A DNA stretch of 64,000 nucleotides from Proteromonas lacertae (taxonomy: Eukaryota): contig NGBS01000594.1 of the NCBI GenBank assembly GCA_002245135.1, forward strand, positions 1 to 64,000. Reading direction: 5' to 3'. A model generated the notes under the pieces. That model made no database searches and was not told the origin of the DNA. It saw only the letters and a program-made list of their open reading frames with translations. The translations under genes and the position numbers were made by a program. Positions 20,350 to 55,515 of this stretch are shown in pieces; the stretch's first letter is position 1, and every line of letters starts with the position of its first letter.

Positions 20350-20485
20350 TTTTTATTATGATTATTTTATTATGTTTATTATAAAATTTATTATATTTTT
20401 ATTATATTATGTGATTTTTATTAAATTACGCATATTTTTTAAACCCTGTCCCAAATCATTTTAAGATAGAGATTCGTTTTAAAAT

Positions 20486-20984
20486 TTAGACTATGTTTAT
20501 CGTAGTTTGATCATTGTTTCCTTTAACTTCTTCTTGTGCTTCTTCTTCCTCATCATCACTATCATCAAATATATAATTCTTCTTTACATAATGTTTAAAC
20601 ATAGGATTCTTCTTCAAATGAACACTTCCCATTCCTTCAGGTAGTGTTAAACCACTCAATATACTTATCGAACACTGCAAAATAATGTCTATTTAATCAT
20701 CTTGGTTTTACTGATGATTTAATATCGAAAAGCATCATATAATATCTCTTATCACTATACTTTGTCCACATCTTTTGATGGCAAATAGCACAGAATTCAT
20801 TATAAGACTTTATCTCTTCCTTAGGTAATGGACTATCTAAAACTGCACTTATGTTATGGTTAAAATATAAGTAAAACTTACATGTTCCACATATACACTT
20901 ATCTAAATAATCTTCATTATTTCTAAATGAACAAAAGAAAGCAAAGTTTATTGAAGCACACATATTTATATTTTTTTGATTCAA
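20486..20984 (-). CDS. Small Cys-rich and acidic ORF fragments, unknown function
   Basis: CICGTC and CAICH pairs in 20697-20984. Second piece at 20486-20680. Confidence 0.3.
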
Positions 20985-22803: not shown

Positions 22804-22818
22804 AACAACTGATTCTTT

Positions 22819-24757: not shown

Positions 24758-25249
24758 TGTTGTGCGCCGTTGAGCGTTAAGAAGGTTTTTTTCAATTCTA
24801 ATATCATAAACAATAGTTTGTTTTCCAAAATAGTTACGTTGGCCTAATATCTCATAACAATAGTAGACATCGGAATAAAGGTTTTAAATAGAAAAGGAAT
24901 ACCTACTTATTGCATTTACCTGCTTAAAATTTATTTTGAAAAAACAGGCTTGAATGCGGCTTGAATAGATTTTTTATTTTTTCGTTTTTAAGTGTCTTAA
25001 CATCTAAATATGTGTGATTTAATTGCTTAAACTAATGTATTTTTTACTCTAGTAGTGATTGAAGAAAAAAAATTAAAAATAAAATTATAATTGTTTTCAA
25101 TATGTTGGGATAAAATTCAAAAAAATAAATTTCGCAGATGTAGCTTATATGACAAAGTAAGATTATATTTGCATATAACTCGCCATCAAACCACACACTA
25201 TCATTTTAGAATTGAAAAAAGTCTTCTTAACACACAACGGCACACAACA
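24758..25249. mobile_element. Non-autonomous MITE, TGT...ACA termini, ~48-bp imperfect TIRs, 5-bp TSD GTAAT
   Basis: gtaat|tgttgtgcgccgttgagcgttaagaaggttttttcaattcta ... tagaattgaaaaaagtcttcttaacacacaacggcacacaaca|gtaat. TSD at 24753-24757 and 25250-25254. Confidence 0.88.
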
Positions 25250-25736
25250 GTAATGACTACAAGGTAACATTTGGCACAGAGAATACTTATGTATCGTTAT
25301 ACTCATTATAGTTATTACACATAGTTGTGCCTAATTCTTTCCCTATCGTCCATCTATCAAATAATTATATAATAAAGAGAATGATATACTATTACAGTTG
25401 TTGTGCGCAGTTTGTCAGAGTTGGCCGTTTGTCTATCAGACACTTTCAAAACAAACTAAATACACAATTACACTTCTATTAATATAAACAGAAATACAAT
25501 CTTTAATCGACATGATTCTCAAAGCTACAACAAATTAATGTATTTCATATTTCAGTGCCTTCTATAAAAATCATTCATTTCAGTGTGTAGCCAATTACAA
25601 TATATTTTTAACGCTTAGCTTCTTTTGAATAATTTACAAAATTATAATTTATGTGTTGTTTTTTGTTTTATGTAATAGTATCAATGATTATGAAATGATA
25701 CACATAAGTCACAGAAGAAAATTGAGAAGTGAAAAA

Positions 25737-25794
25737 TGTCTCCTAGACAAACGGCGTATTTCTAAATCTTCTCACGCCGTTTGTCTAGGAGACA
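25737..25794. repeat. Perfect 21-bp inverted repeat with 16-nt loop
   Basis: tgtctcctagacaaacggcgt (25737-25757) pairs with acgccgtttgtctaggagaca (25774-25794). Confidence 0.9.
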
Positions 25795-26128
25795 CTTTTG
25801 ATTCTCATATTTCATATATGAGATAATCATAATATATTATTAACAAATATAACAAAATTGAAATCAGAAAATAAGTTGAAACAACATTCAACTCAAATCT
25901 TTTTCCAAAATTGTTTTTTGTTTTATGTGGAAGTGTGTACCTAACAAATACATTGTAATTATATAAAGATACTTTTTAGAATTTTTAAAGAAAATGAAAT
26001 TATTTAAATCTATAAATGTTTTTGTTGTTGTAAATGTAAAACAATTTCGCTTTTTCTTCGTTATTTAAACTTTCTATACCTTCAATTAGATCATCAATGA
26101 AGTATTTTATATTAAAACTTTCTATATT

Positions 26129-28790
26129 TTAAATCTTTGTTATTTCCAAATTATTCAATCTTGCTCCAAGAAAGAATAAACAGTAATATCCACAAGTTGC
26201 AGCATATGTTTGATGAACTTTTGTATCTACTATTTCATATGATTCTAATTCACGATTGCAAGAATAAAAGAGTTGTTTAATATTCTTTATTATTATATTT
26301 CTTGGTTCTTTGTTCATATAAATTGCTAAACTGTCATATATTCTAAACATCATATAGTCATTAGGAACATAATCTACTTCCCATAAACTCCAATGACTTT
26401 GATTTGGATCACATACTGGAAAATAATAAATTCTTTTTTCACTTATCTTTTTTTTATTATCCTTTTGCTTTTCATTTAAAAATACAACACCAGGATCAAT
26501 AACATTCTTATTGTTGTTGGAAATATAATGTAATAAAAACAGGAATTCATCTCCTTTTAGTTGATTGTTAATATTTAAATGACTCACCAATTCTTTATAA
26601 TTTACTTCATATTTCGGTTGTTGATGTTGTCCATAGAATCTTACATGACCAATATCATTATATTCTTTAATTTTCTTTGCAAACAACAAACTATCATGAG
26701 TGTGATCATCATATGTAATTGATGCAACACTAGTATCTTTTCTATTTACCATTTTACATGCATATTTTAAAGTCATTGAATTACGCTCTATCAGAAGGTG
26801 TATATAGGTTTTGAATAGATCAATCATTAGAATAATATCAACATCGCTTATATATGGATGATCTTCAGACATCTTTATCATTATCATTGCAGCAGCCAAT
26901 ATTTCTGTTGCTTCAGGAAAGTTAGTATTAACATTGGTCTTGACAAATACCTTCTGCATAATCATCTTCACCAAATGAATCTATAACTTCGATTGTTTTA
27001 TTATCATGATGAATGATAACAGTGTAATAATTGTTACTATCTTTAGCTCTAATTATGAATGCTTCCATCTCTTTATTCATTATCATTTGTTTATCTTTGC
27101 ATACGTAATAATGTTGATTTAAATTGTATAATTCCAATATGAAATGAATTTCATTTAATCCAAGTTGAATTTTTCCAATACTTTTTATAAATCTTTCAAC
27201 AAATTCCAAGTGATCATTAGTTAATGGATCCTTAATATCTTCTTCAGAAGTTCTAATACCAAATATATCATACACTGCATTCTTCTTTGGATTCATTACA
27301 ATTTGCTGAAGTCTTATTTCATAGGTGTTAATATCCTTTTTCTTAGGATTAGGATGAATCTATTAAATATAAATTATCATCAAATATACTAGTATTCTGT
27401 CTGATGTTTTCTTCATATTTTCTAATAATTCTGATGAAACTTCAAGCTTTATTAAAGGTGTAGATGATACTAATGGAATTTGCATGTTTTCATTTCTATT
27501 CATTAGATAGTAATAATTTAATAATATACACTAAATATTGCTTTTTATTAACTTTATCATCTTTAACTAATGCTAGACTCTTTTCATCTTGGCACATCTT
27601 TCGTTTCACAGCTGTAATAACCACATCTCCATGTTCTGGATTAACTAGTTTATTTCCTAATTTCTTAATGGAATCATCTCTCATTTTGTTATTATAATTG
27701 AAGTTTCTTTCGTCTATATAATCTTGAAACTGTTCTATGATATTTCCATTTTGTGTTATATCTTTTTTGATTCTTTCTTTATAATCTTCTTCTTCTTCCA
27801 TTATTGTTACTTCACTATTACCACCATCATCACTATTATCGCTATCATTACCATCTTCATCTACATCTATAACATTATCAGAACCACCATTATTGCCATT
27901 AACGCCATTAACACCTTCTTCTTCTTCATATTCACTGTCTGCTTTAACTTCTTCGCCATCACTATCATCATTACCATCATTATTATCACCTTATATATTA
28001 GTATAATCTGGTTTAAACTTCTTATTCTGAATCATCAACTCTTTCATGTCCATAAAGAATAAGGATCTTCCTTCACAATTTGTTCTTCTGCATCTATTAT
28101 TATTAATTATTTCTGTTATTCTTTCCAAGTATTCAGTCCAATAAACATCAGGATTATCAACCTTCATAGCTGCTATCTTTTCTTTAATGAATCTATTATA
28201 TCTCTCCACTTTACCATTGCACTGTGGGTGTCTAGGCTTGCTATGCGCAAATATAATACCATATTTACTAAGCATATCTTTCATTAAAGCATTTTTGAAT
28301 TCTTTACCATTATCCATCTGTATAATTTCAGGAGGACCAAAGATTCTTATAAAAGATTGTACATTTTTCACTGTTTCTTTATCTGTTTTGCGTTTCTGGG
28401 CATATAACATGATAAAATTAAAGTAATGGTCGATGACAGTTAAGATATAATGGTAGAGATCTTCTTCTTTTATGTTCGTGTAATCTTCATTACAATTGTC
28501 CATTTCTACAAGATCAATCAATACTCTTTCTCTAGGTCTTGTAACAACAATAGGATGTGTTGGTTGTACTCTTTTAGCCTCCTTAAGTTTAATACAATCA
28601 TAGCAGGTTGTCAAATAAGCTCTAATCATCTTTCTGTTAATACCATAATAACCATGAACTGGATCATTTATTTTGAGCATCCAAAAGATATGATATTGGA
28701 ATACCACAAACTAAATATTTTCTTCTAAACTTTTATTGCTCATGCCCATGTTTTTTTATGTATAGAAACCGCATATCTAAATTATCCCAT
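26129..28790 (-). pseudogene. Ginger-type transposase: HHCC zinc finger + rve integrase + acidic linker + Ulp1/C48 cysteine protease, disrupted
   Basis: YLTTCYDC, VLIDLVEM, IQMDNGKEF and HPQCNGKVERYN (DDE). The frame continues through a TAA at 27991 into 27801-27496. A 30-nt intron lies at 27360-27389. C-terminal SHWSL/IYDSL/HQTYAATCGYYCL is the Ulp1 H-D-Q-C signature. Confidence 0.78.
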
Positions 28791-28958
28791 TTAAAAATTT
28801 CGCTTTCTTTAACAATATTTAATTTGTTAATTGATTTATATATATATATCTGAATCTTCTTCTTCATTATTATTATTATCTTTTTCTCTGTATCATTCTC
28901 CTCTTCTTTACAAGATTAATAATAATAATAATAATAATAATATAAAGTGAAAAAAAAT

Positions 28959-29189
28959 TTAAATAGTCATTTTCCTTTGTTTAGTGATTTCAATAAGAGA
29001 CTGAATATCCTTAAGTGTCTTATCATGTTCTAACCCTTTATTCATTATGGCATCTATATTATTTCTAAGTTCTTCTATGTCCGTATTGTTTGGAATACAA
29101 TTGTGTGCCTTTAAGTATTTGAAAAGAGCCAAAGCTATCATATACAATACAAATACGAGAATCTTATATAAGAAAACAAAATTAATCAA
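28959..29189 (-). CDS. Small putative membrane protein
   Basis: Hydrophobic N-terminus followed by a short coiled coil. Downstream of the pPolB-like gene. Confidence 0.3.
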   Translation of the reverse strand: MINFVFLYKILVFVLYMIALALFKYLKAHNCIPNNTDIEELRNNIDAIMNKGLEHDKTLKDIQSLIEITKQRKMTI

Positions 29190-29214
29190 AGTAATGTATT
29201 TATTATCAATAAAC

Positions 29215-30635
29215 TAACTTACAAGACATTGGTTATTATGAATATATTCATCCTTAATGGATCTTGGTGATATTGGAGATAAGTCATAATCTGTGAGATT
29301 GACATTGTCATTGTCATTTTCAAGCTTGACATGATTCATATTAATAATGCTATCTAATAATTAATAAGTTTTTTCAAAAGATGGGTTTCTTTTCTCCTTA
29401 ATCTTGTTAACACACTCAAGAAATATTTTAGGTGTAATACGCACAGTCTCATCTACATCAGAAATACCTAATCTTTGAATTAATTTCTCTTTACTCTCAT
29501 CCCACCAACATCCATGTTTGAATCTATATTCCAAGTCTAATCTATACTGTTCATCGACGTATTTGAGTATATATCTGATCTCACTATAAGTTAGTTCATC
29601 TTCCTCTTAATCAATTGCAAATACTTTTATGTTTAAATCATAAGTTTGCTCTACTTTATCTATATCAGGATTATTAACAGGAGCTACTGGTATTGTAATA
29701 AAATCGTTACTAGGTTGTATTTGAGGTAAATGTTGCTTTTTTAAACATGAATTAATTGCTCTCCAAAAACAATCCATATTATCATTATCCTTATTTTCAC
29801 AAGGATCTAAACAATACTTATTATTAAATATATCAGGAATATGATAATTTCCTCCTGCTCCTGCCATAATTTGGTATTGATTAATATGAGTTTCCATTAA
29901 ATCCATATATTGGAATATTAAACCAGATTCTGGAGGAGAAAAGTCATCCTCATTAATAGAATGAAATAAGGAACGCATCTTTGCTGCTACTGATGCAGGA
30001 TTATCATGTTCTTTTATTAAAATATTTCTTGTATTATGAAATAAGGATACTTCCTCACTTGATTCATCTTACAAAGAAGCATAAACATACCAAAATACAA
30101 AGTATACTTTAATATTTTTCATTTCATGTGGTATTTCACTTATTCTTAAAGCAACATCTGTGTTATCAACAATGAAATTATAATAATCTTCAGGAGTAAG
30201 AAGATGAATATCCTTTAAATTAGTAACGTACTTCCTTGTTACTCCTTCAGAGGATTGTCTTTCTAATTCATACCTTTTTATTCTTTCCTCTAAATTTCCT
30301 CTTGGAGGATGAATTCTATCATCATCCATATCATCATCTCCTCCACCAAAATACATTCCATAATCAGGATTTATAATATGTACTCGAGGATTATTATTTA
30401 AATTCCTCATATAGGAGGTTTCACTTATTTTCCTTCTTTTACTAGTTGCATTAATGAAATATTGGGAAGTGCAATCCTCATTTTCTAGCATCTTTTCTAA
30501 TAAATGAGTTTTTGCATTTAAAGCATATTTTTTCTGCTTATCAGTATTCTTCCTTTTATTCATCATTTTATACTTATAAAAATTCAAAACTAAAAAGAAA
30601 ATAAAAAATGAATATACTTTAGAATAATTGGTCAA
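29215..30635 (-). pseudogene. Polinton-type pPolB N-terminal-like module with in-frame stops
   Basis: 30069-30635 and 29607-29978 are in the same frame. AGGNYHIPDIFNNKYCLDPCENKDNDNMDCFWRAI...DIDKVEQTYDLNIKVFAI matches the motif in 3957-4724. Confidence 0.6.
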
Positions 30636-30774
30636 TTAATATAATTGGTCAAATACAAACGTATACTAAATTTTGATTGGATAATTAAAAATCTACTTAA
30701 AAATCGTTACTTTTTTTATTTGCAATTTTCTTGCTATTTTTATCTATTATTAAAAATTTAACTTCTAAAAAATC

Positions 30775-31698
30775 ATGAGTTCTGGTAAAAAATACTTTAT
30801 TTCTAAAAAGTATGTAGAAGAGGAGGCTGAGGAGGATAACTCTACTATAACTAGTGATGAAGATGATTTAGAAAATTGTGAAACTGAACCAGTACCACAA
30901 AGTGAATATGAAAAGCCTTATATTAAGGATTATGAGAGATGGTGTAAGGAAAACAATGTTGATGAAATGGAAAGTAATCCTGAACCAAAGTATGAAGCTG
31001 AATTAGTGAGGAAAATCACGGGTGATAAACAAATGTTAGAAATGGGAAATATTCCTAAGTTAGAATCTGCAAGAGGATTAGTGAGTGATTACCTTCCTCC
31101 TCATTTAAATAGATGGTTAACTTTTATTGGACATGTATCTGAGATGATATTAGAAAAACCAAAAGAGGATCAGGAAGGATATTATTCTGTGAAGTTTACT
31201 AATGTTCAAGTAGCTAGGTTTGCAGGAAAGGATTGTGATGCTAGTGAATGGATAAAGTTAAAATCCTCTTGGTTATATGATATAGCTGATTATTTGAAAA
31301 CCTCTAAACATTTGGAGCATAGTATTGAAGTTGTCCTCAATTTATACAGGATCTTCATTTGGAAGAATGATGATAGACATAATCTTGTAGGAAATGATAA
31401 AACAGTATATGAGGATTGGACTGTTATGGAGGATAAGGATGTTGTTGTTCCTGTAGTAGCTTTAAAATATACCATCAAGAATAATACATGCTTTGTTAAT
31501 TTATTCATTGATGGAGATATTATGATTGTAAGTGAGGATTATGTTAAAGAAAAAGTTAAGGATAAGGTTGAGGAAAAAGAGGAAAAGAAGTTTAGTACTC
31601 CTAAAAGAAAAAGAGAAAGGTCCTTAAGTCCTCCAGTAGTGAAGAGAAGTAACATAGGAGGATTAACCATAAAGAAGGATCATAAGCATAAAAAGTAA
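30775..31698 (+). CDS. Virus-associated hypothetical protein (acidic N-terminus, basic NLS-like C-terminus)
   Basis: Intact 307-aa ORF between the pPolB-like gene and the integrase. Contains PKRKRER. Confidence 0.55.
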   Translation: MSSGKKYFISKKYVEEEAEEDNSTITSDEDDLENCETEPVPQSEYEKPYIKDYERWCKENNVDEMESNPEPKYEAELVRKITGDKQMLEMGNIPKLESARGLVSDYLPPHLNRWLTFIGHVSEMILEKPKEDQEGYYSVKFTNVQVARFAGKDCDASEWIKLKSSWLYDIADYLKTSKHLEHSIEVVLNLYRIFIWKNDDRHNLVGNDKTVYEDWTVMEDKDVVVPVVALKYTIKNNTCFVNLFIDGDIMIVSEDYVKEKVKDKVEEKEEKKFSTPKRKRERSLSPPVVKRSNIGGLTIKKDHKHKK

Positions 31699-31751
31699 TT
31701 AAAAAGATAATTATCATTAATTCCTTACTATATTCTTATTTTTGTTTTTCT

Positions 31752-33037
31752 ATGGATATTCCAAAAAAGACTTTACCAGAACTATATTTACAATACAACT
31801 ATTTATCTGCTAAAGATTTCATCAATATTTGCACTCACTATGGTTATAGCGAAGATGAAGCTAAGACTTTTGTATATTCTTCTCCAAGATATCAGTTAGC
31901 ATCAAAAAGAGTTCGTCCTAAAAAATTAAGGTATACTACTATTAAAGTACCAGGTACTTTTATGATTGATTTTGCATTCTTTCAAGGAAATGATGGTCCT
32001 CCATCCTTATTTATTATTAATGTTGTATCGAGGAAAGTATGGGTTTATACTTTAGCAAGTAGAAGTGGTTTAGCTTTTGCAGAAGCTTTTACAAAGTTTG
32101 TATTTCAGAATAGGGTAAAAGGAATTTTAGTGGGAGAGGAGGAATATATGATTTTCATTGCTTCTATCATTTGTGATAGAGAAGGAGTATTTATAAGTAA
32201 TGAATTTCAAAATTTCTGTAAAAAGTATAAAATAAAGATACATTATAAAGATACAGATGAGCATAATATCATGGGTATTTTAGATAGAGCAGTTAGAACA
32301 ATAAAGGATCTTATTTATTATAGAGGAAGCACATATGATCAAAAGAATTTAATAAAAACACAAGCTGATTTAAATAATTTTATCCAAATGATTGTAAAGG
32401 ATTACAACAATACTCCTCATTCAGGAATTAAAGGATATACACCAAATGAAGTATATGATGATATGAGTCTACAATATAATTCCTCCATGAATCGAGGAAT
32501 TATAATAGAAATCTTAAAGCCAAAAAAGGATCTCCGTTTAATGTTGGAGATAAAGTAAGAGTTAAAGAAAGAGCAAAATCAAAATTAGATAAATCTCATA
32601 GGTATAGTGATCAAGTATATACGATAAAGAGGAAAAATCCTTTTTCATATGATATTGATGTATATGATGATGAAGGAAGAATAACTACCAAAAGATCTAA
32701 GGAGTTTGAATTACTAAATGTATCAGATACACATCCATCCTTTGCTAAACAGAATGAACAGTATTACAGAACAATAGGAAAGGAAATGCAACAGTATACA
32801 AGAGATCTTGATTATGTTCCTCCTGGTGTAGTTGTTAATGATAAACCTCAATTACAACCTGTTGCTGAAACAGTTCCTGTTAATCCTGCAGAACAAGCAG
32901 TGCAAGATTATAAGGATAATAATGCTGCACTTGATTTTGTTAATAAAGTTAGAAGGACAAGATCAGGAAGGATAAGTAGACCTAATCCTTTATACTCACG
33001 TAGTTTATATTTTTATGCTTTTTTGTTTTCCCAATAA
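31752..33037 (+). pseudogene. Polinton/virophage-type rve integrase with C-terminal SH3-like domain; one frameshift near 32490
   Basis: FMIDFAFF, IICDREGVF, GILDRAVRTIK and YNNTPHSGI..TPNEV. The shifted frame gives FNVGDKVRV...RYSDQVYTI and runs into ORF 32786-33037. Confidence 0.85.
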
Positions 33038-33060
33038 ATAAAACTCATAATAAGAAATAT

Positions 33061-33761
33061 TACTTAAAAATTATCTCCATAATAAGTATTTCCTGTTTTT
33101 AAAATTTGAGATTGCCTTGGGATATTAAAAGGTTTACAATATGGCATACCCTTAAAACTAAAATCTTTATGATTTACAACGCCGTTATATTGAGGTTTTT
33201 CAGAGAAGTAAATTCCTTTAACATTTTTAGTATCGTTTTCTACAACTGTTAAAGTAAATACTAATCGTTTTTGATATACTGAAAATAAGAATCAAATTTA
33301 CTTTTATATAAATCATTAGGTATTTGCCATGACATTTGTGGATTATTATACATGTAAAAATCAATACTATCAAAATCTGTAGATTGAAAAGATACATATT
33401 GATCTGCTAATATTGTCATCATAATATAATTATTATAAAAATCTAATTGTATAGGAAACATTTTTTCTCCTACCATATTATTACCTTTAATAATTACCAT
33501 ATCTATAGTAATAAATTGAGTACCAAGTTTCCAAGGAAATCCTACTTTTAATTTAGTAAATAGTACATTCTCGTAAATTGTTAATATACCATTAACAGCA
33601 GCATTGAGATCTGTTTTTTTAGCAACATCTTTAATATCCTCCTTGCTAGCCAATGTTTGAATATCAGGCATATTAATAAGGATATCTTCTGCAGCATCTT
33701 GCACTTCCTCTCTAATTGTTTCGATTATTTTTTGAATGTTATTTATGTTATTACCCAACAT
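33061..33761 (-). pseudogene. Virus-associated hypothetical protein, homologue of 19546-20349
   Basis: IQLDFYNNYIMMTIL resembles KIEMFENFMKIKLY. The tail KGMPYCKPFNIPRQ resembles NGYPHQDYLAIPRQ. Internal stop at 33261. Confidence 0.5.
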
Positions 33762-33789
33762 TACAAAGAAAAATGTAAATGAATTAAAA

Positions 33790-34546
33790 GTTATTTTTCT
33801 TCCAATACTTTATCAAAATTTATCCTGAATTCGGATTTAGCTCTATCTATATAGAGGAAAGCATAAGGAGATGAATTAACTACTGCATTATACACTTTCT
33901 TAAAATCCTCAAAAGAATCTGGCCATAACTCCAAGGATTCTTATAAACTCCTTAAATTATCTTCAGTTAAACCTTTAAAGACTAAACAGTAATCAATTTG
34001 TAATCTGGCTTGAGGAGATAAATCAGTTATATACTGAGAACTAAATATTGTTTTGGACTTATAATGCCTATTGTGTTTAGTAATTGTATTAATAATAGGC
34101 ATCTTTAATTCAGAGGAAATATCATCAAATATAAAAATATTTTCAGGATAGGTCATATTACTCTTATCCACAGGATCCAAATCCTTCATCACCTTTTGTA
34201 AATTGTTATATCCTTCTTCTTCATTTATTAAAGAATCATATTTTTCATAGTATATACCATTATACTTTAACAACTGAAATATCTTTTCATATATAATATC
34301 ATTGTCCAATGTACTTACAAAAAAGAATACCTTTTGTTCTTCCTCAGAGGATAAGATGTTTTTCAAAATGTTATAGATTAAAGTTGTCTTACCTGATTTC
34401 TTTTTTGCTACAATAAATATATTGCTGAAAGGTTCCTCAAAGTACTCATAACCTAAAACACTCTTCGATGGCTTCTTTCTTTTCTTTGGTTTTTCCAAAG
34501 GTTCTACAGATAAGTTATTTATTATTTTAATATGATACATACACAA
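33790..34546 (-). CDS. A32/FtsK-like DNA packaging ATPase (premature stop at 33941)
   Basis: IFIVAKKKSGKTTLIYNIL, IFIFDDIS and KHNRHYKSKTIFSSQY. Downstream tail SPYAFLYID...FRINFDK. Confidence 0.88.
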
Positions 34547-34583
34547 AACAAAAGAAAAAAGAAAATGAAATATTTTAATGGAA

Positions 34584-35073
34584 TTATCTTATGCGTCTAG
34601 TTCTTCTTCTCCTTGATCATCCTCTTCTTCTTCTTCTTCTTATACCTAAACCTACTTTGCTTAAAGATTTAGATGCTATATTAGCAACTGTACTCCAAGG
34701 CTTTAAGACTGAATTAGCTATCTTAATTCCATTACTTAATACTTTATGATCATGCATGTATTTTCCTATCTTTTTAATAGTATCACCTAAACCTTTTCCT
34801 TTTCTTGGATGACCATATGAAATAGGATCACTTCCTTTAAAAGATCCTCCTCTTACTCTGCAACGTCTTCTTCTTCTTCTTCTGCCATATCCTTGTTTCT
34901 CAATAACATGAGAAATAGCATTGCCAGCATATGGTATTAACTTTGCTATTCCGCTTAAAATACCTTTTCCTTTTAACCAATTTCCTCCTCTGTACCTTCT
35001 TCTTCGTCCTCTTCTTCTTTTTTTTACTCGATGTGGCTTAAGATCCTTTTAATTTAAATGAGTATAACCCCAT
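34584..35073 (-). pseudogene. Arg-rich core/membrane-active precursor (adenovirus pX/pVI-like), not in the ORF track
   Basis: Manual translation: KPHRVKKRRRGRRRRYRGGNWLKGKGILSGIAKLIPYAGNAISHVIEKQGYGRRRRRRCRVRGG...RKGKGLGDTIKKIGKY...SKVGLGIRRRRRG*SRRRRTRRIR. Confidence 0.68.
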
Positions 35074-35602
35074 ATTAAAAAACATTGAGAAATATAAAAA
35101 TGACTTACAATTTAAAACAGTCAATAATGCTTATTTGTTTCAAAAGTTATTATCAAAGCAAACATCAATGGATCAATGGTATGATAAAGGTAGTTATTTA
35201 AAACATATCAAAATCCTTTCATTGATAAATTAAAGATCAAATGGAAAGGTAGAAGATGAATAAAATGAATTCAACTTATAGATTAAATGAAAAATAACAA
35301 GAAAAAGTATGAATCACTGGAAGATAATTATTTGGAGTTAAATAAGATTCCTTTATACAAAGATCTAGTACAATTTTTTTATCTCTATACAAAGATCTGA
35401 AGTTATTTATTAAAATTTAGTAGTTAAATTTACATTGAATTATTTATTTATAGAGATAATCAAATTTTGAACAAATTTAGGGGTAAAATTTTTCATATTT
35501 ACAGTACATATAAGTAGTAGTAATCGAATATATAATAATGTTACATATGTTGACGTAATAGGTGATATCGGCACAAGTTATATATATATCATTTTTACTC
35601 TC

Positions 35603-35678
35603 TATAACTAAGATAAAAATGATATTAGTTTGTTTTAAAAGTCATTGTATGATGAAATCGGCTCAACGGCGCACAACA
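35603..35678. repeat. Right end of the TGT...ACA transposon family
   Basis: tataactaagataaaaatgatattag...cggctcaacggcgcacaaca aligns with 5095-5185. Confidence 0.75.
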
Positions 35679-37041: not shown

Positions 37042-40000
37042 TTATTTCTTATTTTTACCACATGTTTTTTTATGATTTTTCCAATCATTCGCTTGACAAT
37101 CTCTACTACAATAATACATTTCTTTACATTTACTACATTTCTTAAACTTTTCATTTAATTCTTCCATTCTTTTACAACTTGAATTTCCACACCTTTTCAA
37201 TAATCGAGTCTTCTTCTCTTTATTATCATATTCCAATATGTCTTTATTCTTTTCAATGAATGACTTATAATAATTACATTTCTTTGCAATTATATGAATT
37301 ATTGGAATTCCAGGAATAGTGTATTTATTATATTCTAATACTTCTTTTATTTGACATTTTGGATTTATTCTAACCCAATGTTGTTTCATAAAATGATTAC
37401 GCAATTTTTCTTCATTTTCACCTGGTTCAGCCATTGAATAAGGTTTTGTATAATATTCCATTATAAACACTTCAATATTACTAATATGATAAACATTACA
37501 AACATCCCAAGGAGCTGAAGGATATTTATTATCAGGTAATGCAACTTCAAGGTGTTTTATTAATTCATCATTTTCACATACTCTTTGAATGAAATCAATC
37601 TGACTATATTCAGGATATAACAATAAGAATGGGAAATATAATAAACCATCATCATCGATTTGTGGATCAGATATATATTGTTTCATATCTTCAAATAATG
37701 AAGGACCAACTAGATATTTTCTTTTTTTATAATATTCATGAACTATTTTTAATTGTTCTTTTCGAAATTTCTCTCTTTCTTCTTCTTCTTCTATTATTCT
37801 ATCTTCAACATCTTTTTCTTCACTCAACTGATAGAACAATACATATGGAATAAAATGAGAATAATATAAATCATTCATATTACATTCATTCATTACTTTA
37901 TCATCATTGAATATATACCATTTATTTTCATCAGGAGATTTGCATTTTGCAATATAATGACCAGATTCCATACTACCCCAATGACTTGTCATACCAATTA
38001 AATCATATATTCTTCTTTCTCCTCCTATTCAAAATGTAATTCATGAATATATATAATATACTTTCATTTGTTATGGATAATTCATCAGATCTATTCACAC
38101 TCTTTGATTTATCAGTTAGATTTAACTGAATGATTAATATTTTGGGGAATTTACTTAATAGTGTGATATGAATTGATGGTAGTGTACGATCGCAATTACA
38201 GCAACATCTATCAACAAAACTATAAGAGTATAATAACAAACAATTTTCTAACTCAACACTTGAAACATTTTCACCAATTCTTCTTTTAGGTACAGGAACT
38301 GATATACCAAAATTTTTAAAACTCTCATTTTCTATCAATTCACCACATGTAAGACAAGAAATTCTATTCAACATTTCCACTTCAAATACTTCACTAATTA
38401 CATTAGAATTATTAGTTGAAATGCCAAAACTATATTCTAATAATTTCAATAGCAATATTAAAAATTCATGTGCATCTTGTTGTTTATCAACTTCAAAATT
38501 ACTATTACATGTTATGGCTGATTTTATTTCTAATGGGTTTATTACTGTATTATTCTTATCATTAGTCCATAAATCTTTTAATAATTTAACAAATGTGTTT
38601 TTCATTTCATTATTATCATCATTTACTTCCAATTCTATTACATAATCTCTTAATGGTTTGATATGAACTAAGCATTGTAATATTGAGTTCATATAGCAAG
38701 TGCTACCTTCATTTACTAAACCACATGTATCACCCACATTAGGAATAGAAGTTTCATAGTAGATATTGTTTTCATCAATTGGCTGTAATTTTGGTTGTTG
38801 TGGTAGTGTTGGAAGATAATTATAATATGATAATATTCTTTCATTGATTATTCTATCTTTCTTTTTATTATGCGTATTACTATTCTTTTGTAAATCAATT
38901 GTTATAATTACATCTCCTGATTCTTCAATTTTGAAATCACTTCCATATACTGAATCTTTAAGTATTGATTTACAATATGTAATTTTTGCATTTTTAAACT
39001 GTCTATCACCTATATAATGTGAAACTAATACTTTTGATATAAAAGGTGATGATTCAGGTGATTTATCATTGGATACTGTAATATAATACATTCTTTTAAA
39101 ACACATTCTTTCTTGCAATCCACATATACATTCCTTTATTTGATCATCACAATCCAATACTTCTCGCTGATCATTTATTACATGTATAAAACAATTATTT
39201 AATAAGTAAATCATTTCTCTTTTCTCTAGAGTTGCTAAATGAACCAAACAGTATTTATTATCATTACTACAATAGATATCTCCATCAAACATATATATAA
39301 ACGGTTTTAATTCAATTTCATTTATCTCTTCAACTAATGTATTATTTCCTAATTTCAATTTATCACCATGATATAAACAATTGTACCAAACTAATTCTTG
39401 AAACAATAATTTAAATAACTGGGAAGTATTTCCTTCCTCATAAACTCTTTTAAATTTTTCATCAATTTCCTTAATATCATCTTCTCCTGCTCTATGCTTC
39501 ACACAATCATAAATATAATCAAATACTTCATCTGATATAAATTCCATTTCATGTTCATTAATTCTATCATAACATTTGGTTTTGGGATCTTTAAATGGAA
39601 TAGAATACTTCACTATATAATGAGATAATGTACTATCAAATGTGGTTGTTCTATTGGATATTTTATCTTTATTTTCATTTGATTCAGATGGATATAAATA
39701 TGTCCTTATAAATTTCATATAACCAAGTTTACCAACGATTCTTTTTATACCTTTTGAATATAATTTATCCCAATAATTTTCATCATAACATTCTTTATAA
39801 ATTGATGCATAATAGATATGTCTTGGAACATTTCCATATCTACTATTAAACTCTTTTGCTATATTTACCAAATCAGGAGGTAAACATTTTTCTTCCCATT
39901 CTTCAATTTCATCTTTACTAAATACATCCATAAAGTAATATTTTCTATGATAAGCATCAGTATTTTCTGTTAATGATTTATAATTTTTATCATCTGGTGA

Positions 40001-43000
40001 AGTAACATATAAGTATATATTACCTTTAGGATCATTATCTTGAACATCATAAGAATCACATATCACAATATCAAAGAATTTTCTTTCACTATCACATTCT
40101 ATTTTTTTTCTCTCTAAATAGTATTTATCACAAACTATTTTATCATCTTTTGTTTTTGCTTTAAGAACACATACAGTAATCTTATTGCCTTTCAATATTT
40201 CATTTAATTCTATAATTCTATTTAATATATAGATAACAAACGAAGTTTTTCCACAACCTGGATTTCCTCTCAACAAAACTCTCGTAGGATTGTCATATAT
40301 TTGGCATTGTTCAAAATAGTTAAGAAGATGTTTTGCGTAATCATCATTTATCTCTTCAGCTTTTTCATCATTCAGTGTAACACAAAGTGATTTAATATTT
40401 TCTATTACTTTTTCTTTATACTGTTTATAACAATATATTAAATATTTCAATTCATTCCATATATCTTTATAAACATCTCTAACATATACTATTCTATTAG
40501 GATATTGATATATATCACAATAAATTTTTATAGTTCTATCACTATCATTGTATTCTGGACTTGAATCTCCAAATATTTTACATAAAGAGTTTGTAACTAT
40601 TATTTATATAATTAATATATATATATATACTTTCTCGATTTTTACTATGAGCATTTAAATTACTCTTTATAAGATCTAAAAATGATTCTGTATTATTTAT
40701 TCTATTTTTATCTGTTTCGTCAATCTTTTCTTCAGTAATTGTATTATGTTCAAAGTCTTTTTGAAATGTATTTAATTTTTCTACTGCTAGATTCTTTTCA
40801 TCAAATACTAACTTCTCTTTTAGTTTTTCCCATTCTCCAATAATTCTTGATTTCTTTTCAACTAGAGATTCATTGGAATGATCTTCAATTACAGGTTCTT
40901 CTTTTGCTTTCTTTATTATCGTTTCACATATTCTATAATCATGTTTTATCTTTTCTTCTTCAACTTCATAACGTATTATATTTATTGAAAGATTTGAATA
41001 CCCTGTAACTTCTAAATCTATAGATTTATTATCACTAATAACTATATGTAATTTTTCTTCATTCTTTTGATGTAATGTTTCTGAATTCTTTTGATCTATT
41101 AAATATTTATTTAATTCATCAGAATTCATATTATAAGTTGAAAATCTTAATCTTTTAGATTTTATTGACATTATTAATTTTTGTGATTTATTCTTTTTTT
41201 CATTTCCTCTACCAGTTGATTTCATTTCATCCCATTTGTAAGTTTTATTCATTTCTTCTACTATTTTATTTTGGAATACTCCATAATGTCCAAAACCAGT
41301 ATCACCTTCTTCAAGTGATGATGTTACTTTATTCTGATTGTATGCAACAAATACAATATTGAATATTGGATTACATTTATCCAATTGATCTATAATAACT
41401 TCATTATTAATACTTGAATTGATTTCTTCTTTAATTGACTATAATAATATTAATAATACAACAATATACAGCAATAATATCATTCTTCATAGCTTTTTTA
41501 TCTTCATCATTCTTCTTATCATTATATATTACATCAATCAAATAATCTTCTAAGTCATGTAATATTTGTTCATCTTTTATGACAACTTCAACTGCATCAT
41601 TTTTCTTTTCAAGTTCTAATATTTCTATTTGTTCAACTACTTCTTGCAATTTATTTTCTAATTTCGAAATTTCAGATGCTAATGTTTTATTTTCTTCTAA
41701 TAATTCATTTGATGAATCACTACCATTTAATGAATTATCATTTTCATGTTTTCTTTTCTTTGGTATATTAGTAGTTTCTAATGTTTTATTTTCTTCTAAT
41801 AATTCATTTGATGAATCACTACCATTTAATGAATTATCATTTTCATGTTTTCTTTTCTTTGTTTTGTTTGAATCAATTCCTGATTCGCTTTTTCTTTTTA
41901 TTAAACTATATATACTTTCTTCTAATTCTTTCTTTTTCCCTTCTAATTCTACATCATTATTTGTTATTTTTGTAAAAGTTTTCTTCTCACTAGTATCTAA
42001 ATATTTCTTTTTATAATCACCATACATTTGAACTATGACATTATACCCTCTATAATAAAGTTCATTTATCAAAAACTATATAATTATATATAAAAATATT
42101 AATTATATACATAACTCTCACAAATTATTCTCTTTGATCTATCCATACTATTTATTATCTCTTTCTTTTTTTTCTCTGGGATATATCCATTATCATATAA
42201 CGCATTTGCAAGAATTTCTTTATCATTTTCATTATTACTCATATATTCATTTAGTCTTTTCAAATTACTGATTATATATGATTTATGATAGCTATATAAC
42301 ATCTATACAATAATAATTATAATAAATACATTTAGAAATGCTATCACAGTATTCTTAGTTGGATGATTATTAGAAATTGTCATTTGTAATCCAGTAATAC
42401 TATATTTGTTAATAATACATGAATCTATTGCTGGAAAATTAATTATTCTTCCAAAATCCACATAAATACCATCAAATATAAATCCATCAGAAATAAAACC
42501 ATCTTCTATTAATCCACTAATTCTATCACCTTCTATCTTTGCATTTGGTATTGTTAATCCGGTAATTACACAATCTTTAATTCTAGTATAACTCTTTGTT
42601 ACACCGTTAACTGTTATTTCACAGTCTTTTACTATTCCTTTTTTTATATCTAATGAATAATTGTCATTTATAATATATATAACACCAGTTTCAAGTTCTA
42701 CATAAGTAACTCTATAGTTGTTAATTCTACACTTACCAATTCTATTATTCTCATCCTCATTAAGATAATCAATAAATCTATCCATGTCGATATAAGTTAA
42801 TCTATATTCAGGTAGATTAACTGGAGATTCTTTACTATTTGTCTTATAATAACCATTATCTTCGAATATAATGTGACACATTCTTTCAAATATCAGTGGA
42901 TCTTTATTATTCATTATATCACCTTCAAATACTTCATATAATAATTTATAATCCTTACTATCAAAAAAATAATGACTTAATATGTATTTTTCCATTTCTT

Positions 43001-43898
43001 TTGATATATATCTCAATGTGTCAGGTATTATATTAAATTCATTTGTATCATATACAAATAATTTATCTTCATAATCAGGTGGAATATATAATGGTAATTT
43101 CTTAGTAGATTCTGTAATACTATTACCAAAATAGTCACCTATTCTTTCTGACGAATAACCGACTATAAAATTGCCATACACAAGTGCATTTTTGATTCTT
43201 ATTTCTTTACTATTATTACTTATTTTACTTCGATTAATTATCATCTCTAATTCTTCTCTAGTGAACTGAGGTATGTAGTATTGAATGGGACATCTCTTAT
43301 TTGCCATGATTTTATATTTATCTGCTTTTGGAGCACTAAGCATGATTATTATATTATCATCACTGAAATCATCTTCATGGATCACTTCATTATCGCATAT
43401 AACTATTGTTTTACCCTTTAAATCAGGTATTTCTTTATTTCTTGTAAGGAATTTATGAGTATTTGATAATCTATAATAATATTTTTCTGTCTCTTTCTCG
43501 CCAAACACTAATATGTTATATTCATCAAAATAACTGTCATTATTAAGACAATAAGCCAAAAAACAGCATAATGTAGTCTTTCCCAATTTTCTATTGCCAT
43601 AAATTAAAAAGCAATTCTGAAATTCTTTACCTTCACCTTCTTTCTTGGCTTCACCTTTCTTCCCTTCACCTTGGTTCTTGCATTTATTTTGATTCTTTTT
43701 AATTACACCTTTAATATCGTTATAAATGTTTACGTAACAACCTCTTACTAAGATCATAAAATCATCAGTAGATTTATCAGTAGAATCATCAGAAGAAGGA
43801 CAATACTTAAAATAATACACTCCTCCTACAATATTGTTAACTCTTTCCAACTTCAACTTGTTGATATCAGAATAACTTATTCCATAGTTAAAACTCAT
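37042..43898 (-). CDS. ~2230-aa multidomain protein: Crinkler-type NTPase+REase (x2), USP (C19) deubiquitinase, Cns1/TTC4 Wheel domain, MYND zinc finger; 6 exons
   Basis: Introns 42303-42329, 42076-42110, 41439-41469, 40597-40630 and 38025-38061 are all GT-AG and restore a single frame. Motifs: YGNRKLGKT; NFPAIDS..GLQMTISNNHP; RGNPGCGKT; YGNVPRHI; GLVNEGSTCYMNSILQCL; QQDAHEF; HWGSMESGHY..WYIFNDDKV; FPFLLLYPEYSQIDFI..APWD; CSKCKEMYYCSRDCQANDWKNHKKTC. Confidence 0.85.
41681..41860 (-). repeat. In-frame tandem duplication (99-nt period) encoding KKRKHENDNSLNGSDSSNELLEENKTL twice
   Basis: 41681-41760 is repeated at 41780-41859. Confidence 0.9.
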
Positions 43899-44478: not shown

Positions 44479-45311
44479 TTACACTTTAAATAAATTAAGC
44501 ATTTCTTCTTCCATATCATGTAATTTTGAAGGAATAATCACACAGTGTAATGGTTTGCCAAAATCATATTTTATTAAATCTTCTATTCTTCCATAACCAA
44601 TTCTTTGATCAGATTGACCAATTCGAGCTAATCCCACTACTTTCAAATCTTTCGATAAAACACCTTCTTTCTTTGTTTCTTCTATTTCTAATAATTGTTC
44701 TAAACATTGATTCACTGTCATAAATCGAGGAGGTTCAAATTTCGTTATTCCTCTCATCATTGCTTTAAAATCAGGTTCTTTTACTTTTATATCTAATAAA
44801 ACTAATGTATGTAAATCTTGATCCATATTAGATTTTATTGAATCATAAAAACCATTTGGTTTCCAAGTATCTGTGAAAAATGGAACTGATATTGTATGAC
44901 CGAATCTGTATAGTTGTAATCCGCAACAACCAACTGCATTCATTATACTTGCATTATGGATTACTTCAACTTCTATCCCTTTCTCTTTAGCACGAATATA
45001 CAAATCAGAGTGGGTTGTTGCACCAAATGGATCACCAACTACCAAAAATGCTACTTTCTTATCTACTGCTGGGTTTAATATCTCCTCAGCGTGAGATTCT
45101 ACCATATCTCTATCAGCTATAATGATTTCATGGTTATAAAACTTTTCCTATTAACTATAAACTATAACAAAAATACTAAATTTTCTTTGCCAACACATAG
45201 AATTGATGTATATCCCTCTAAAAATATTTTATCACACGATTTGACAGCTTCTAAACCTTTCACTGTAATATCTCTTTCATCTCCCAATCCTAAACCAACA
45301 AAATACAACAT
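44479..45311 (-). CDS. DPH5: Diphthine methyl ester synthase
   Basis: [37 protein letters not shown] and HTLVLLDIK. One short intron near 45150-45177. Confidence 0.96.
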
Positions 45312-52750: not shown

Positions 52751-54028
52751 ATGAAGCAAGAAAAGAAGATTATTAACTGGAACGCTTCTTGGGACGATTT
52801 GGTCGGCGAATATGAATTTTTGCGTTTCAATAAGTATCTTCTTCGTGGTTATAGAATCGGCTTACGAATGAAAGACTGTTTCTTTAGGTATGAGTATGAT
52901 TTTAAAAAATCTTAGTTTTGTCCACCTCACCAATGAATCAGTGAATATATGGAGCCATTTCTTGGGATTTATAGTGGTTGTAATGTTAATGATCCACTGT
53001 AATTCCATGCCAATAGAAAAAGTGGAGTCAAAGGATTACCAAGCAATAAGCAGACTTGGAGACAAGTTATTAGTGAATGGCCATCACGATTTACCAATTG
53101 TTGCAATTCTAACCTATCCAGAAGGTATAACCAATTTTGATGTAGATGTTAACAACACGTTAATCAATGTATATCAAAAGGCTAAGAATACAATGGAAGT
53201 TGATATAACAAAAGAAGATTGTGAAACAATAAGAAGCTATTTTCCACAATATTCAAAGTTAAATGATTCGCAAATATCAGATTTATTAAAGTCTGATTTG
53301 AACTATGAATTATCCGAGTTAATTCGAGATGAAATCAGTCATCAGTATTACAAGCCAAATAAAACTCCAATTAGTTTTGTATATTCCTATTTTATCTATA
53401 TAAACTGTAATAGAAGGTCAGTAAGATGCCAATCTACATTTATTTATTCTGCTCATTATTCTGTATGTTTAATAGCGCAATGTATCATATTTTCAACTGT
53501 GTAGATGAAGAAACTGATTTAAGATTCAAAACATTCGATTTAGTAGGAATATCAGTGTTAATCTGTGGCAGTTACTATCCGTTGGTATTATATGGTTTTC
53601 ACTGTGATACTAAAATACAATTACTATATTTAGTACCAGTTACATTCCTCTCAATCTTCTCACTTTGTTTGACTTTATCAAGCTACGGCTTGTCAGTTGC
53701 TGGTGATATTTTTCGTTCAATCACTTATGCAACAATAGGAATAATCGCATTTGTACCAATTACCCATTTATTACTAAGATATGGATTTGATAGTGAAAAT
53801 TTCCAATTTGCTGCTATGAAGTTGTTATTAGGAGGATTAGCCTTCTTTTTAGGTGCTATAGCTTATGTATTCCATTTCCCTGAAAGATTTGCACCGGGAA
53901 CATTCGATTATTTTGGAGCTAGTCATCAAATATTACATATTTTGGATGTTGTAGGAATTTTAATATTTTATGATAATTCCATTCATATGTATCATTGGTT
54001 GAGTAATGTCGAAGGAGTAATGTGTTAG
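52751..54028 (+). CDS. PAQR/adiponectin-receptor (HlyIII) family protein, copy 1
   Basis: NKYLLRGYR, NESVNIWSH, SAMYHIFNC and PERFAPGTFDYFGASHQILH. Two introns. Confidence 0.92.
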
Positions 54029-54234
54029 ATTTCTGTAACTAATATTAATAATTATTAAAAGACAAATAAAAAAGGATTTTTAACTTCATTTTACTTTTTA
54101 AGAAGATTTGTTTTTGTAATTTGAAATTTCAAAAAAGACAGTAAAAATAGATTATGTTTTTATATAATAAATCACTTTTATTAAATATAAGGATGATGAA
54201 TATGCTAAATTAAACATTGATCCTTTGTTCTTTG

Positions 54235-55515
54235 ATGAAAGAAGAAAAGAAGAAAATAAACTGGAACGGCAGTTGGGATGATCTGGTAGGTGAATATTCT
54301 TTTCTAAGAACTAATAAATATATACTCAAAGGCTATAGATTAGGTTTGCAGTTCAAAGACTGTATCTGGAGGTATTTATCTAATTAGAGTTATATTGTAG
54401 TTTAATTCATCTCAGTAATGAATCAATCAATATCTGGAGTCATGTAATTGGTGTCATTGTGGTTTTCATATGTGCTTTACATTGTTATTTTCTAAATGTT
54501 GAAAATATTGAATCTAAAGATTATGTACCACATAGTTTTATGGGACCAACATTGATTTCTAAAGGACATCACGATTTTTCAATGATGGCAATAATTATTA
54601 AACCAGAGATATTATCACAGTCAATACACTTTGATTTAGATAAATCCATATCCAAAATATATTATAAATGTGTTAAATCACCAGAAGAGCTTAATGAAGC
54701 TGATTTCAGTACAATCAGGTATTTATTCCCACAATATTTACACCTAAACAATACTGAACTTATGAATATATCACATGATATATTAAAAACTGATTTAGAA
54801 GAATATGTCAAAGATGAACTCAGTCAATCATTTTCAAAGCCAATTCATACTCCCATAAATTTCGTATAATTATTCTACAATATATTATCAATAGAAAATA
54901 CCAAAATATCCAATATTCATATTTCTATTCTCAGCATTCATTTGTTTAGCATTTAGTTCATTCTATCACTGTTATAATTGCATAAATGAAAAGGCACATA
55001 GTTTATATAAGAAATTTGATTATATTGGAATATCTATATTGATAGCTGGCTCATATTATCCAATAATAATATATAGTTTTTACTGCGATATAAATACTCA
55101 ATTTTTATATTTAATTCCAATCACTTTAAGTTGTTTTTCAGTGTTATATTTATCACTTTCTGAGTATGGATTATCTCCAAATGGAATAGTAATAAGGACA
55201 TTCAGTTATATGTGTAGTGGATTACAAGGGTTTATTCCAATTACTCATATATTGTTAAAATATGGTAAAAATAGTGAAAACTATTTATATAGTGGTCCAG
55301 GATTGATTGTAATGGGATTATGGTATATTATTGGTGCTGTTTTATATGCTTTTAAAATACCTGAGAGATTTAATCCTGGTAGATTTGATTATTATGGAAG
55401 TAGTCATCAGATATTTCATACGTGTGTAGTTATTGCTGTTATGATTCATTATCATACTAGTTATACGTTGTATAATTGGTTGAGTAATATAGAAAGAGTA
55501 ATTTGTAATTATTAA
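54235..55515 (+). CDS. PAQR family protein, copy 2
   Basis: NKYILKGYR, NESINIWSH and PERFNPGRFDYYGSSHQIFH. Confidence 0.92.

What the first reader, a model, noticed from the sequence alone, without database searches (positions are those of the whole stretch)
37042..43898. Intact giant Crinkler NTPase-nuclease x2 / USP deubiquitinase / Wheel / MYND fusion gene
Seen: six separate ORFs join via five 27-37-nt GT-AG introns into one uninterrupted ~2230-aa frame. Known: the P-loop + YG.VPR + NFPAIDS..LQMT pattern is the Crinkler CR-NTPase/REase effector module. The Cys/QQD/His boxes are a complete USP active site. Wheel is the Cns1/TTC4 co-chaperone C-terminal domain. Inference: a toxin-type NTPase-nuclease fused to a deubiquitinase, a chaperone-associated domain and a MYND finger, with a duplicated KKRK NLS-like motif. 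I do not recognise this architecture. It is intact although it abuts a virus/transposon graveyard, which suggests a nuclear conflict or anti-viral effector with captured host domains, or a domesticated CRN mobile element.
Basis: partly seen in the sequence, partly recalled or inferred. Interest (0 to 1): 0.85.

Follow-up and report, generated by a model that had tools for sequence, protein, structure and literature searches.

The report
Crinkler-type nuclease fused to captured domains
In an unidentified small-intron eukaryote, six exons predicted to be spliced together form one unbroken 2,230-residue frame that joins two Crinkler-type modules (one keeps the DNA-cutting residues, the other the ATP-using ones) to a ubiquitin-removing domain and the tail of a host chaperone-helper gene, likely making a self-protecting DNA cutter.

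Summary
The gene model holds. Five host-like GT-AG introns (27-37 nt) join six exons into 2,230 stop-free codons. Unnamed relatives support introns 1 and 4, and intron 5 splits the USP. No transcript was seen.

Both modules are Crinkler/RHS (CR)-family, but "NTPase-nuclease x2" is only half right. Module 1 keeps the nuclease motif and lacks the family's conserved lid arginine. Module 2 keeps all ATPase motifs, but its nuclease region no longer matches, as in its close relatives. The two are old, distinct types that also co-occur in one reading frame in a relative, in reverse order.

Wheel and MYND are not separate captures. The last 241 residues are the 3' half of a host TPR-Wheel-MYND (Cns1/TTC4-type) gene, 80-85% identical to 13 relatives, with a sharp join after the USP. 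No close module-2 relative shows the USP. There is no Crinkler header and no signal peptide.

Best reading: an intracellular, likely nuclear CR conflict element that recently gained a guard deubiquitinase and a host docking tail, paralleling Wolbachia CifB. One instance; function untested; a young passenger chimera is not excluded. New variant of a known kind.

The parts
42330..43898 (-). Exon 1 (523 codons): short N-terminus without Crinkler header or signal peptide, then CR module 1
43194..43757 (-). Module-1 P-loop NTPase: Walker A Gly-Lys and Walker B Asp kept, lid arginine not kept
   Evidence: CR profile E 1e-15
42330..42923 (-). Module-1 restriction-fold nuclease with Glu...Asp...Gln-x-Thr...His; core at 42345-42443; about 70-residue insertion absent from P0001
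   Evidence: 0 of 2000 shuffles reach its score
42303..42329 (-). Intron 1, 27 nt; the called ORF of relative P0001 runs out at the same position
42111..42302 (-). Exon 2 (64 codons), no family match
42076..42110 (-). Intron 2, 35 nt
41470..42075 (-). Exon 3 (202 codons): charged linker, likely coiled coil, with Lys/Arg clusters resembling a nuclear signal
   Evidence: sequence
41674..41868 (-). In-frame 99-nt tandem duplication, 84 nt identical, so recent
41439..41469 (-). Intron 3, 31 nt
40631..41438 (-). Exon 4 (269 codons): linker; one short stretch weakly like the N-terminus of P0002
   Evidence: 29 residues, 41%, pairwise E 0.008
40597..40630 (-). Intron 4, 34 nt; P0002 reads through an intron-like hydrophobic stretch at this position
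39431..40495 (-). Module-2 NTPase and helical region with all family ATPase motifs; AAA+/STAND-like fold
   Evidence: CR profile E 1e-25; model pLDDT 74.8; TnsC Z 10.3, rmsd 5.5, 250 aligned
39068..39421 (-). Module-2 nuclease-like region: helix-3 strands-helix-strand order and first Glu kept, catalytic Asp and Gln-x-Thr...His absent
   Evidence: 734 of 2000 shuffles reach its score
38062..38725 (-). USP, N-terminal part (Cys box, Gln-Gln-Asp box, two Cys pairs, box 4), in the same exon as module 2
   Evidence: Pfam UCH E 2e-32; USP2 E 6e-16
38025..38061 (-). Intron 5, 37 nt, splits the USP between box 4 and the His box
37831..38024 (-). USP, C-terminal part (His and Asn/Asp of the triad)
37042..37767 (-). 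Captured 3' half of a host TPR-Wheel-MYND (Cns1/TTC4-type) gene, 241 residues to the stop; Wheel Pfam core 37456-37647, MYND 37060-37182

Best explanation
This is one gene, predicted to be spliced from six exons, that encodes a header-less Crinkler/RHS-type protein likely acting inside its own cell, probably in the nucleus, as an ATP-controlled DNA nuclease that would guard itself with a fused deubiquitinase. Shown by sequence: the frame, the domains, the complementary loss of motifs in the two modules, and the host origin of the tail. Inferred mechanism: module 2 binds and hydrolyses ATP and assembles on DNA as TnsC/Orc1/STAND-like ATPases do; its dead nuclease fold helps to hold DNA or protein; module 1 does the cutting; the Lys/Arg clusters direct import; the USP removes ubiquitin from the protein itself or from nearby chromatin and so blunts host degradation; the Wheel-MYND tail supplies a ready-made docking surface. 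Inferred history: an old two-module CR element of selfish origin gained the USP and then, recently, the 3' half of the host Cns1/TTC4-type gene by recombination in a transposon-rich zone.
For: Frame and introns. Exon 5 has no Met before residue 222, after its P-loop, so module 2 needs upstream exons. CR family: Atlas nearest clusters are Crinkler/RHS for both modules at 0.92-0.93 (one source). The module-2 profile reaches a protein with a Pfam Crinkler header and one with RHSP. A profile of 20 distant CR proteins hits both NTPases. A nuclease-only profile hits module 1 (0 of 2000 shuffles) but neither module 2 nor any of the 6 module-2-type relatives tested. Both module types lie in one ORF in P0047, and P0001 and P0002 share the contig length 4,788. 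The tail is 85% and 80-81% identical to two groups of relatives that are 80-81% identical to each other; 177 of 188 positions invariant in them are kept; its branch is not long. The adjacent hAT-like remnant is broken while this frame is whole. No header, signal or membrane segment. Precedent: CifB has alternating active and inactive REases plus fused DUBs proposed as guardians or co-effectors (PMC11342252, section 12 read); a header-degenerate Crinkler-like selfish element is degraded through host ubiquitination (PMC12957317, abstract and passages).
Against: No transcript, protein or activity data. The full fusion was found once only: 0 of 47 CR-like proteins scanned carry UCH, Wheel or MYND, and no close module-2 relative aligns past residue 556 of exon 5, where the USP starts at 624 (21 of 22 aligned). 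The fusion may be too young to have been tested by selection, and an unaccelerated tail fits very recent capture as well as purifying selection. P0001's nuclease scores weakly on the profile (37 of 2000 shuffles). The USP lacks a conserved Lys-Arg-Phe after box 4. No terminal repeats or transposase tie the gene to mobility. The window holds a 3.7-kb 99.9% inverted duplication, which could reflect amplification artefacts in this assembly.
Confidence: 0.45

Rival explanations
1. Young passenger chimera: the two-module CR core is functional, but the USP and the Cns1/TTC4 tail were joined recently by chance recombination and add nothing.
For: The fusion is seen once. The tail is as close to relatives' housekeeping copies as they are to each other. 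Exon 3 carries a very recent duplication. The locus borders transposon and virus debris.
Against: Two in-frame, stop-free joins; the USP triad, the MYND zinc ligands and the whole Wheel are kept; the neighbouring hAT-like remnant has decayed.
Confidence: 0.25
2. Domesticated host defence or regulator: the host now uses the protein against Polinton-like viruses or transposons, or as a chromatin-linked deubiquitinase, not as a selfish element.
For: It lies beside integrases and a packaging-type ATPase and next to housekeeping genes; it has host-type introns. The review PMC5289972 (passages) reports the suggestion that some unsecreted CR proteins target invasive DNA. USP plus MYND plus an Hsp90 link is a host theme in USP19 (PMC13349892, passages).
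Against: Neighbourhood shows no function. The module-2 subfamily is split into many clusters under 50% identity and C-termini vary, unlike a fixed host gene.
Confidence: 0.15
3. Not one protein: two or more neighbouring genes, or an assembly chimera that joined a CR gene, a USP and the TTC4-type tail.
For: Introns 2 and 3 have no support from relatives; retaining intron 1, 3 or 4 would end the protein. No reads were available, and the window has a near-perfect inverted duplication.
Against: Only 27-37 nt separate the ORFs; 62 and 221 open codons precede the first Met of exons 4 and 5 (chance 1e-3 and 2e-11). The module-2/USP and USP/tail joins lie inside exons and are in frame. G+C by codon position is similar along the gene.
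Confidence: 0.1
4. Secreted Crinkler-type effector aimed at an animal host or at other microbes.
For: CR family membership; USP-type activity would suit host manipulation.
Against: No Pfam Crinkler header, about 47 residues before the NTPase, no hydrophobic leader, and 2,230 residues in length.
Confidence: 0.05

Closest known systems
Crinkler/RHS (CR) proteins, NTPase + helical region + REase type (Zhang et al. 2016, known to me only through PMC5289972 and PMC11342252)
   Same: P-loop NTPase followed by a restriction-fold nuclease with the family's motifs; profile matches to CR proteins.
   Different: No header domain; two modules of different type with complementary loss of catalytic motifs; fused USP and Wheel-MYND. 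The review lists trypsin, zincin and Ulp1-like peptidases among CR C-termini, not USP, in the passages read.
Wolbachia CifB (CidB/CinB)
   Same: CR-related REases, some active and some inactive, with fused deubiquitinases proposed as guardians or co-effectors.
   Different: CifB has four REases, no NTPase, Ulp1/OTU-type DUBs and a CifA antidote, and is bacterial. Here the gene is eukaryotic with introns and the DUB is a USP. Analogy, not membership.
Cns1/TTC4 Hsp90 co-chaperone, here a lineage form with TPR + Wheel + MYND
   Same: The last 241 residues are 80-85% identical to this gene in 13 unnamed relatives.
   Different: The TPR half is absent from the gene and from the whole window; a USP stands in its place.
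AACRNL and Tribolium Medea1 selfish CR-like elements
   Same: Header-less or header-degenerate CR-type genes acting in their own genome, near transposons; AACRNL is countered by ubiquitination.
   Different: AACRNL carries an ADP-ribosyltransferase; Medea1 has one NTPase-REase unit; neither is described with a USP or a co-chaperone tail in the passages read.
USP19
   Same: USP, MYND finger and an Hsp90 link in one chain.
   Different: In USP19 the MYND lies inside the USP and the Hsp90 link is through CS domains; there is no NTPase or nuclease. Here the MYND came with the Wheel.

Membership tests
CR (Crinkler/RHS) proteins | CR-type P-loop NTPase | tested here: met
   Profile of 20 distant CR proteins: module 1 E 1e-15, module 2 E 1e-25; links to Pfam Crinkler- and RHSP-bearing proteins. 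Pfam RHSP itself did not hit the window.
CR (Crinkler/RHS) proteins | REase with catalytic residues after the NTPase, module 1 | tested here: met
   Motif aligns; 0 of 2000 shuffles. Activity not tested.
CR (Crinkler/RHS) proteins | REase with catalytic residues after the NTPase, module 2 | tested here: not met
   Asp and Gln-x-Thr...His absent; -0.7 bits, 734 of 2000 shuffles.
CR (Crinkler/RHS) proteins | REase fold of the module-2 C-terminal region | tested here: inconclusive
   The order of helices and strands fits; the fold searches were filled by the NTPase, residues 8-366.
CR (Crinkler/RHS) proteins | Named CR-NTPase/CR-REase clade of Zhang et al. 2016 | not testable with these tools
   The paper and its profiles are not held.
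Canonical secreted Crinkler effector | N-terminal ubiquitin-like header or secretion signal | tested here: not met
   No PF20147 hit; about 47 residues before the NTPase; no hydrophobic leader; P0001 starts at a like position. An unseen upstream exon is not excluded.
USP (peptidase C19) | Cys box, Gln-Gln-Asp box and His/Asp box in order | tested here: met
   Pfam UCH over both cut-offs; alignments to USP2 and USP15.
USP (peptidase C19) | Lys-Arg-Phe after box 4 (ubiquitin-binding role recalled, not from a call) | tested here: not met
   Not kept in the alignment to USP2.
USP (peptidase C19) | Deubiquitinase activity | not testable with these tools
   Needs a Ub-AMC or di-ubiquitin assay.
Cns1/TTC4 co-chaperone | Wheel domain | tested here: met
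   Pfam E 9e-12; human TTC4 6hfo E 1e-6.
Cns1/TTC4 co-chaperone | TPR domain | tested here: not met
   13 of 13 relatives share the TPR-bearing half, exon 6 does not; no such half in the window.
Autonomous mobile element | Terminal repeats, target-site duplication or own transposase | tested here: inconclusive
   No flanking repeats found; no genome was held to count copies.
CifB | Four-REase core with a cifA partner | tested here: not met
   Two NTPase-linked nuclease regions in a eukaryotic gene with introns.

The most novel reading that the evidence does not exclude
A eukaryotic nuclear-genome counterpart of Wolbachia CifB: a selfish two-part CR machine in which one module supplies the ATPase and the other the nuclease, which arms itself by capturing host genes, here a deubiquitinase that shields it and the Wheel-MYND half of an Hsp90 co-chaperone that docks it on host machinery, with exchangeable C-termini across the family.
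Probability: 0.2. Interest if true: 0.85.

Novelty: new variant of a known kind. Interest (0 to 1): 0.6.

Why it matters
If expressed, it is a natural CR protein in which ATPase and nuclease are split between two modules, so the idea that the NTPase controls the nuclease can be tested with single loss-of-function changes. It would also test, in a eukaryote's own gene, the guardian-deubiquitinase idea proposed for CifB. It shows a datable capture of half a housekeeping gene by a conflict gene, with a sharp breakpoint. If the fusion is a passenger, the value shrinks to a new CR subfamily and an unusual TPR-Wheel-MYND form of Cns1/TTC4.

Tried and rejected
No whole genome is held, so paralogues and the parent TTC4-type gene could not be sought. 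No RNA holder was listed, so no reads were laid.

Zhang et al. 2016 is not held. Its text and supplements may list tandem CR modules or USP fusions, which bears on novelty. Ten paper searches were run. Those aimed at this architecture listed nothing that describes it by title or abstract start; Crinkler + deubiquitinase + restriction endonuclease gave 0 papers.

No related locus in JGI metagenome contigs or viral contigs; no plasmid match; no informative NCBIfam, PHROGs, PADLOC or PDB-sequence match for the CR modules. The single-sequence model of exon 5 was unusable (pLDDT 31.7). Fold searches did not test the module-2 nuclease region. The complex prediction of module 1 with module 2 gave no answer (score 0.00, alignments not used).

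Rejected: a recent tandem duplication (p-AU 4e-6); an old duplication within the lineage is not rejected (p-AU 0.20). Rejected: insertion into the native TTC4-type locus, as no TPR half lies in the window. Stop codons made by polyadenylation, a Blastocystis trait recalled from memory, were checked with the recalled 8-base motif: 6 sites on both strands, about what composition gives by my hand estimate; one lies inside the USP coding region.

Rows dropped: P0063, an ordinary AAA protein; three fragments of 48-77 residues left out of the Pfam scan (44 of 47 new hits scanned). Exact base coordinates of single motifs were not computed; coordinates come from domain ranges. Earlier scan notes held no look-alike.
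Full report
Observation. Exons 43898-42330, 42302-42111, 42075-41470, 41438-40631, 40596-38062 and 38024-37042 (minus strand) give 2,230 residues without a stop; the introns are 27, 35, 31, 34 and 37 nt, start GTA, end TAG and are very A+T-rich. Housekeeping genes to the right show introns of the same form. A scan for such sites gave 8 on the gene strand, among them all five introns, and 0 on the other strand; shuffles put the chance of five right-frame junctions near 1e-10, a rough estimate. The frames are open for 62 and 221 codons before the first Met of exons 4 and 5, which argues against separate genes. Intron 5 splits the USP between the two Pfam UCH hits. Relatives add support that I read from protein ends: P0001 ends in an intron-like tail where exon 1 ends, and P0002 reads through an intron-like stretch where intron 4 lies, with upstream sequence in the same frame that is weakly like exon 4. 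Introns 2 and 3 have no such support. No genome or RNA run was available, so splicing is predicted, not seen.

Host. The window is about 25% G+C, reads in the standard code and has tiny introns. I infer a protist and did not identify it. Left of the gene lie a broken hAT-like remnant (label from recalled motifs; stops and frameshifts), two integrases and a Tc1-type transposase, and a packaging-type ATPase (weak hit). Right of it lies a methylase I read as DPH5 and other housekeeping genes.

The CR modules. Pfam names neither module. The Atlas puts both nearest to Crinkler/RHS clusters at 0.92-0.93. Word searches found 1 relative of module 1 (P0001, 32%) and 2 of module 2 (P0002 43%, P0003 37%), all unnamed Logan proteins; P0001 and P0002 share the contig length 4,788 and are probably one locus. 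A module-2 profile found 49 proteins among 1.84 billion, 17 at E 1e-10 or better. Distant hits include one with a Pfam Crinkler header, one with RHSP and an Acytostelium protein; one hit (P0063) was an ordinary AAA protein and was dropped. A profile of 20 distant hits, without the window or its close kin, matches module 1's NTPase (E 1e-15) and nuclease core (E 8e-4), and module 2 from its NTPase to the first nuclease helix (E 1e-25). A model of module 2 (pLDDT 74.8) is nearest to TnsC, archaeal STAND-like ATPases and Orc1/Cdc6 (top Z 10.3, rmsd 5.5, 250 aligned).

Complementary loss. Module 1 keeps Glu...Asp...Gln-x-Thr...His as in CR nucleases and scores above 2000 of 2000 shuffles on a nuclease-only profile. 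Module 2 does not (734 of 2000 shuffles reach it), nor do the 6 module-2-type relatives tested (225-1823 of 2000); P0001 is weak (37 of 2000); two single-module relatives, P0043 and P0045, score like module 1. Conversely, the arginine in the helical lid after the ATPase core (sensor-2-type by my knowledge of AAA+ enzymes) is kept in at least 90% of 24 rows of the family alignment and in 10 of 10 module-2-type rows that cover it, but not in window module 1 or in the module-1-type part of P0047. P0001 is ambiguous there, as two alignments differ. Module 1 keeps the Walker A Gly-Lys and the Walker B Asp, so it may still bind nucleotide. The module-2 nuclease region keeps a helix, three strands, helix, strand order, but no fold search tested it. 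The two types form separate clades. The window's two modules are not sisters (p-AU 4e-6); an old duplication in this lineage is not rejected (p-AU 0.20). P0047 holds both types in one 1,041-residue ORF in the reverse order, so the pairing is older than this gene and not tied to order.

The added domains. The USP has Cys, Gln-Gln-Asp and His/Asp boxes and aligns to USP2 and USP15, but lacks the Lys-Arg-Phe that follows box 4 in USP2. Its source was not traced. It begins in the same exon as module 2. None of 47 CR-like proteins scanned has UCH, Wheel or MYND, and 21 of 22 close relatives that aligned stop matching by residue 556 of exon 5, before the USP at 624. These are ORF calls that introns or contig ends can cut, so the absence is suggestive only. 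The tail is the clearest new result: a search with exon 6 found TPR-Wheel-MYND proteins at 83% and 79%. The match starts abruptly after the USP. Over 241 residues the tail is 85% identical to 9 and 80-81% to 4 relatives, which are 80-81% to each other; 177 of 188 positions invariant among them are kept and the branch is not long. All 13 share the TPR half, which is absent from the window. Wheel and MYND therefore arrived as one captured half of the host's Cns1/TTC4-type gene. Cns1 is an Hsp90 co-chaperone for eEF2 (PMC7994586, passages).

Mechanism. With no header, signal or membrane segment and with Lys/Arg clusters, two of them from a recent in-frame duplication, the protein likely stays in the cell and enters the nucleus. 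I infer that module 2 is the ATP-driven switch and scaffold, module 1 the cutter, the USP a guard against ubiquitin-dependent removal, and the tail a docking surface. The review PMC5289972 (passages) reports that in CR proteins the REase is thought to carry toxicity under NTPase control. CifB gives a parallel of active plus inactive REases with guardian DUBs (PMC11342252, sections 12 and 19 and passages read). AACRNL shows host ubiquitination countering a selfish Crinkler-like gene (PMC12957317, abstract and passages). None of these steps was tested here. Confidence 0.45; rivals are a young passenger chimera (0.25), a domesticated defence or regulator (0.15), separate genes or an assembly join (0.10) and a secreted effector (0.05).

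Verdict. It is a CR-family protein by NTPase and by the module-1 nuclease, not a canonical secreted Crinkler, not a TTC4 and not a CifB. I found the architecture in no database search or paper search named above, but the defining 2016 survey and its supplements could not be read. New variant of a known kind; interest 0.6.

Noticed in passing
window 1-7683: 3.7-kb inverted duplication at 99.9% (1-3720 against 7683-3965): a hairpin end, a terminal repeat or an amplification or assembly artefact.
   Followed up: no
window about 17400-35050: Polinton/adintovirus-like remains: two integrases (27991-28710, 31692-32558), packaging-type ATPases (33941-34588, 19199-19555), an Arg-rich core-like ORF (34617-35048) and a protease-like ORF (26129-26980). 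Labels other than integrase are recalled or weak.
   Followed up: partly
window 11174-15394 and 21940-24431: Cluster of long-ORF glycosyltransferase-like and FkbM methyltransferase genes among the mobile debris.
   Followed up: no
P0005-P0018 (relatives of 37042-37767): These organisms have a Cns1/TTC4-type co-chaperone with a C-terminal MYND finger (TPR + Wheel + MYND); I do not know this form from elsewhere.
   Followed up: partly
P0047; P0043 and P0045: P0047 holds both module types in reverse order; P0043 and P0045 are single modules with both ATPase and nuclease motifs and may show the ancestral state.
   Followed up: partly
window about 42610-42850: Insertion of about 70 residues rich in Val, Ile, Thr and Cys, with a short internal repeat, inside the module-1 nuclease; absent from P0001.
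   Followed up: no
window 44479-45147: The DPH5-like gene (an eEF2-modifying enzyme) ends 580 nt upstream of the gene whose tail comes from an eEF2 co-chaperone; probably coincidence.
   Followed up: no
window 35597-35673: A 77-nt repeat about 90% identical to copies at 2522-2598 and 5087-5163; possibly a transposon end.
   Followed up: no
window 52872-55515 and 60279-61415: Three similar membrane-protein genes that I read as AdipoR/haemolysin-III type from memory.
   Followed up: no
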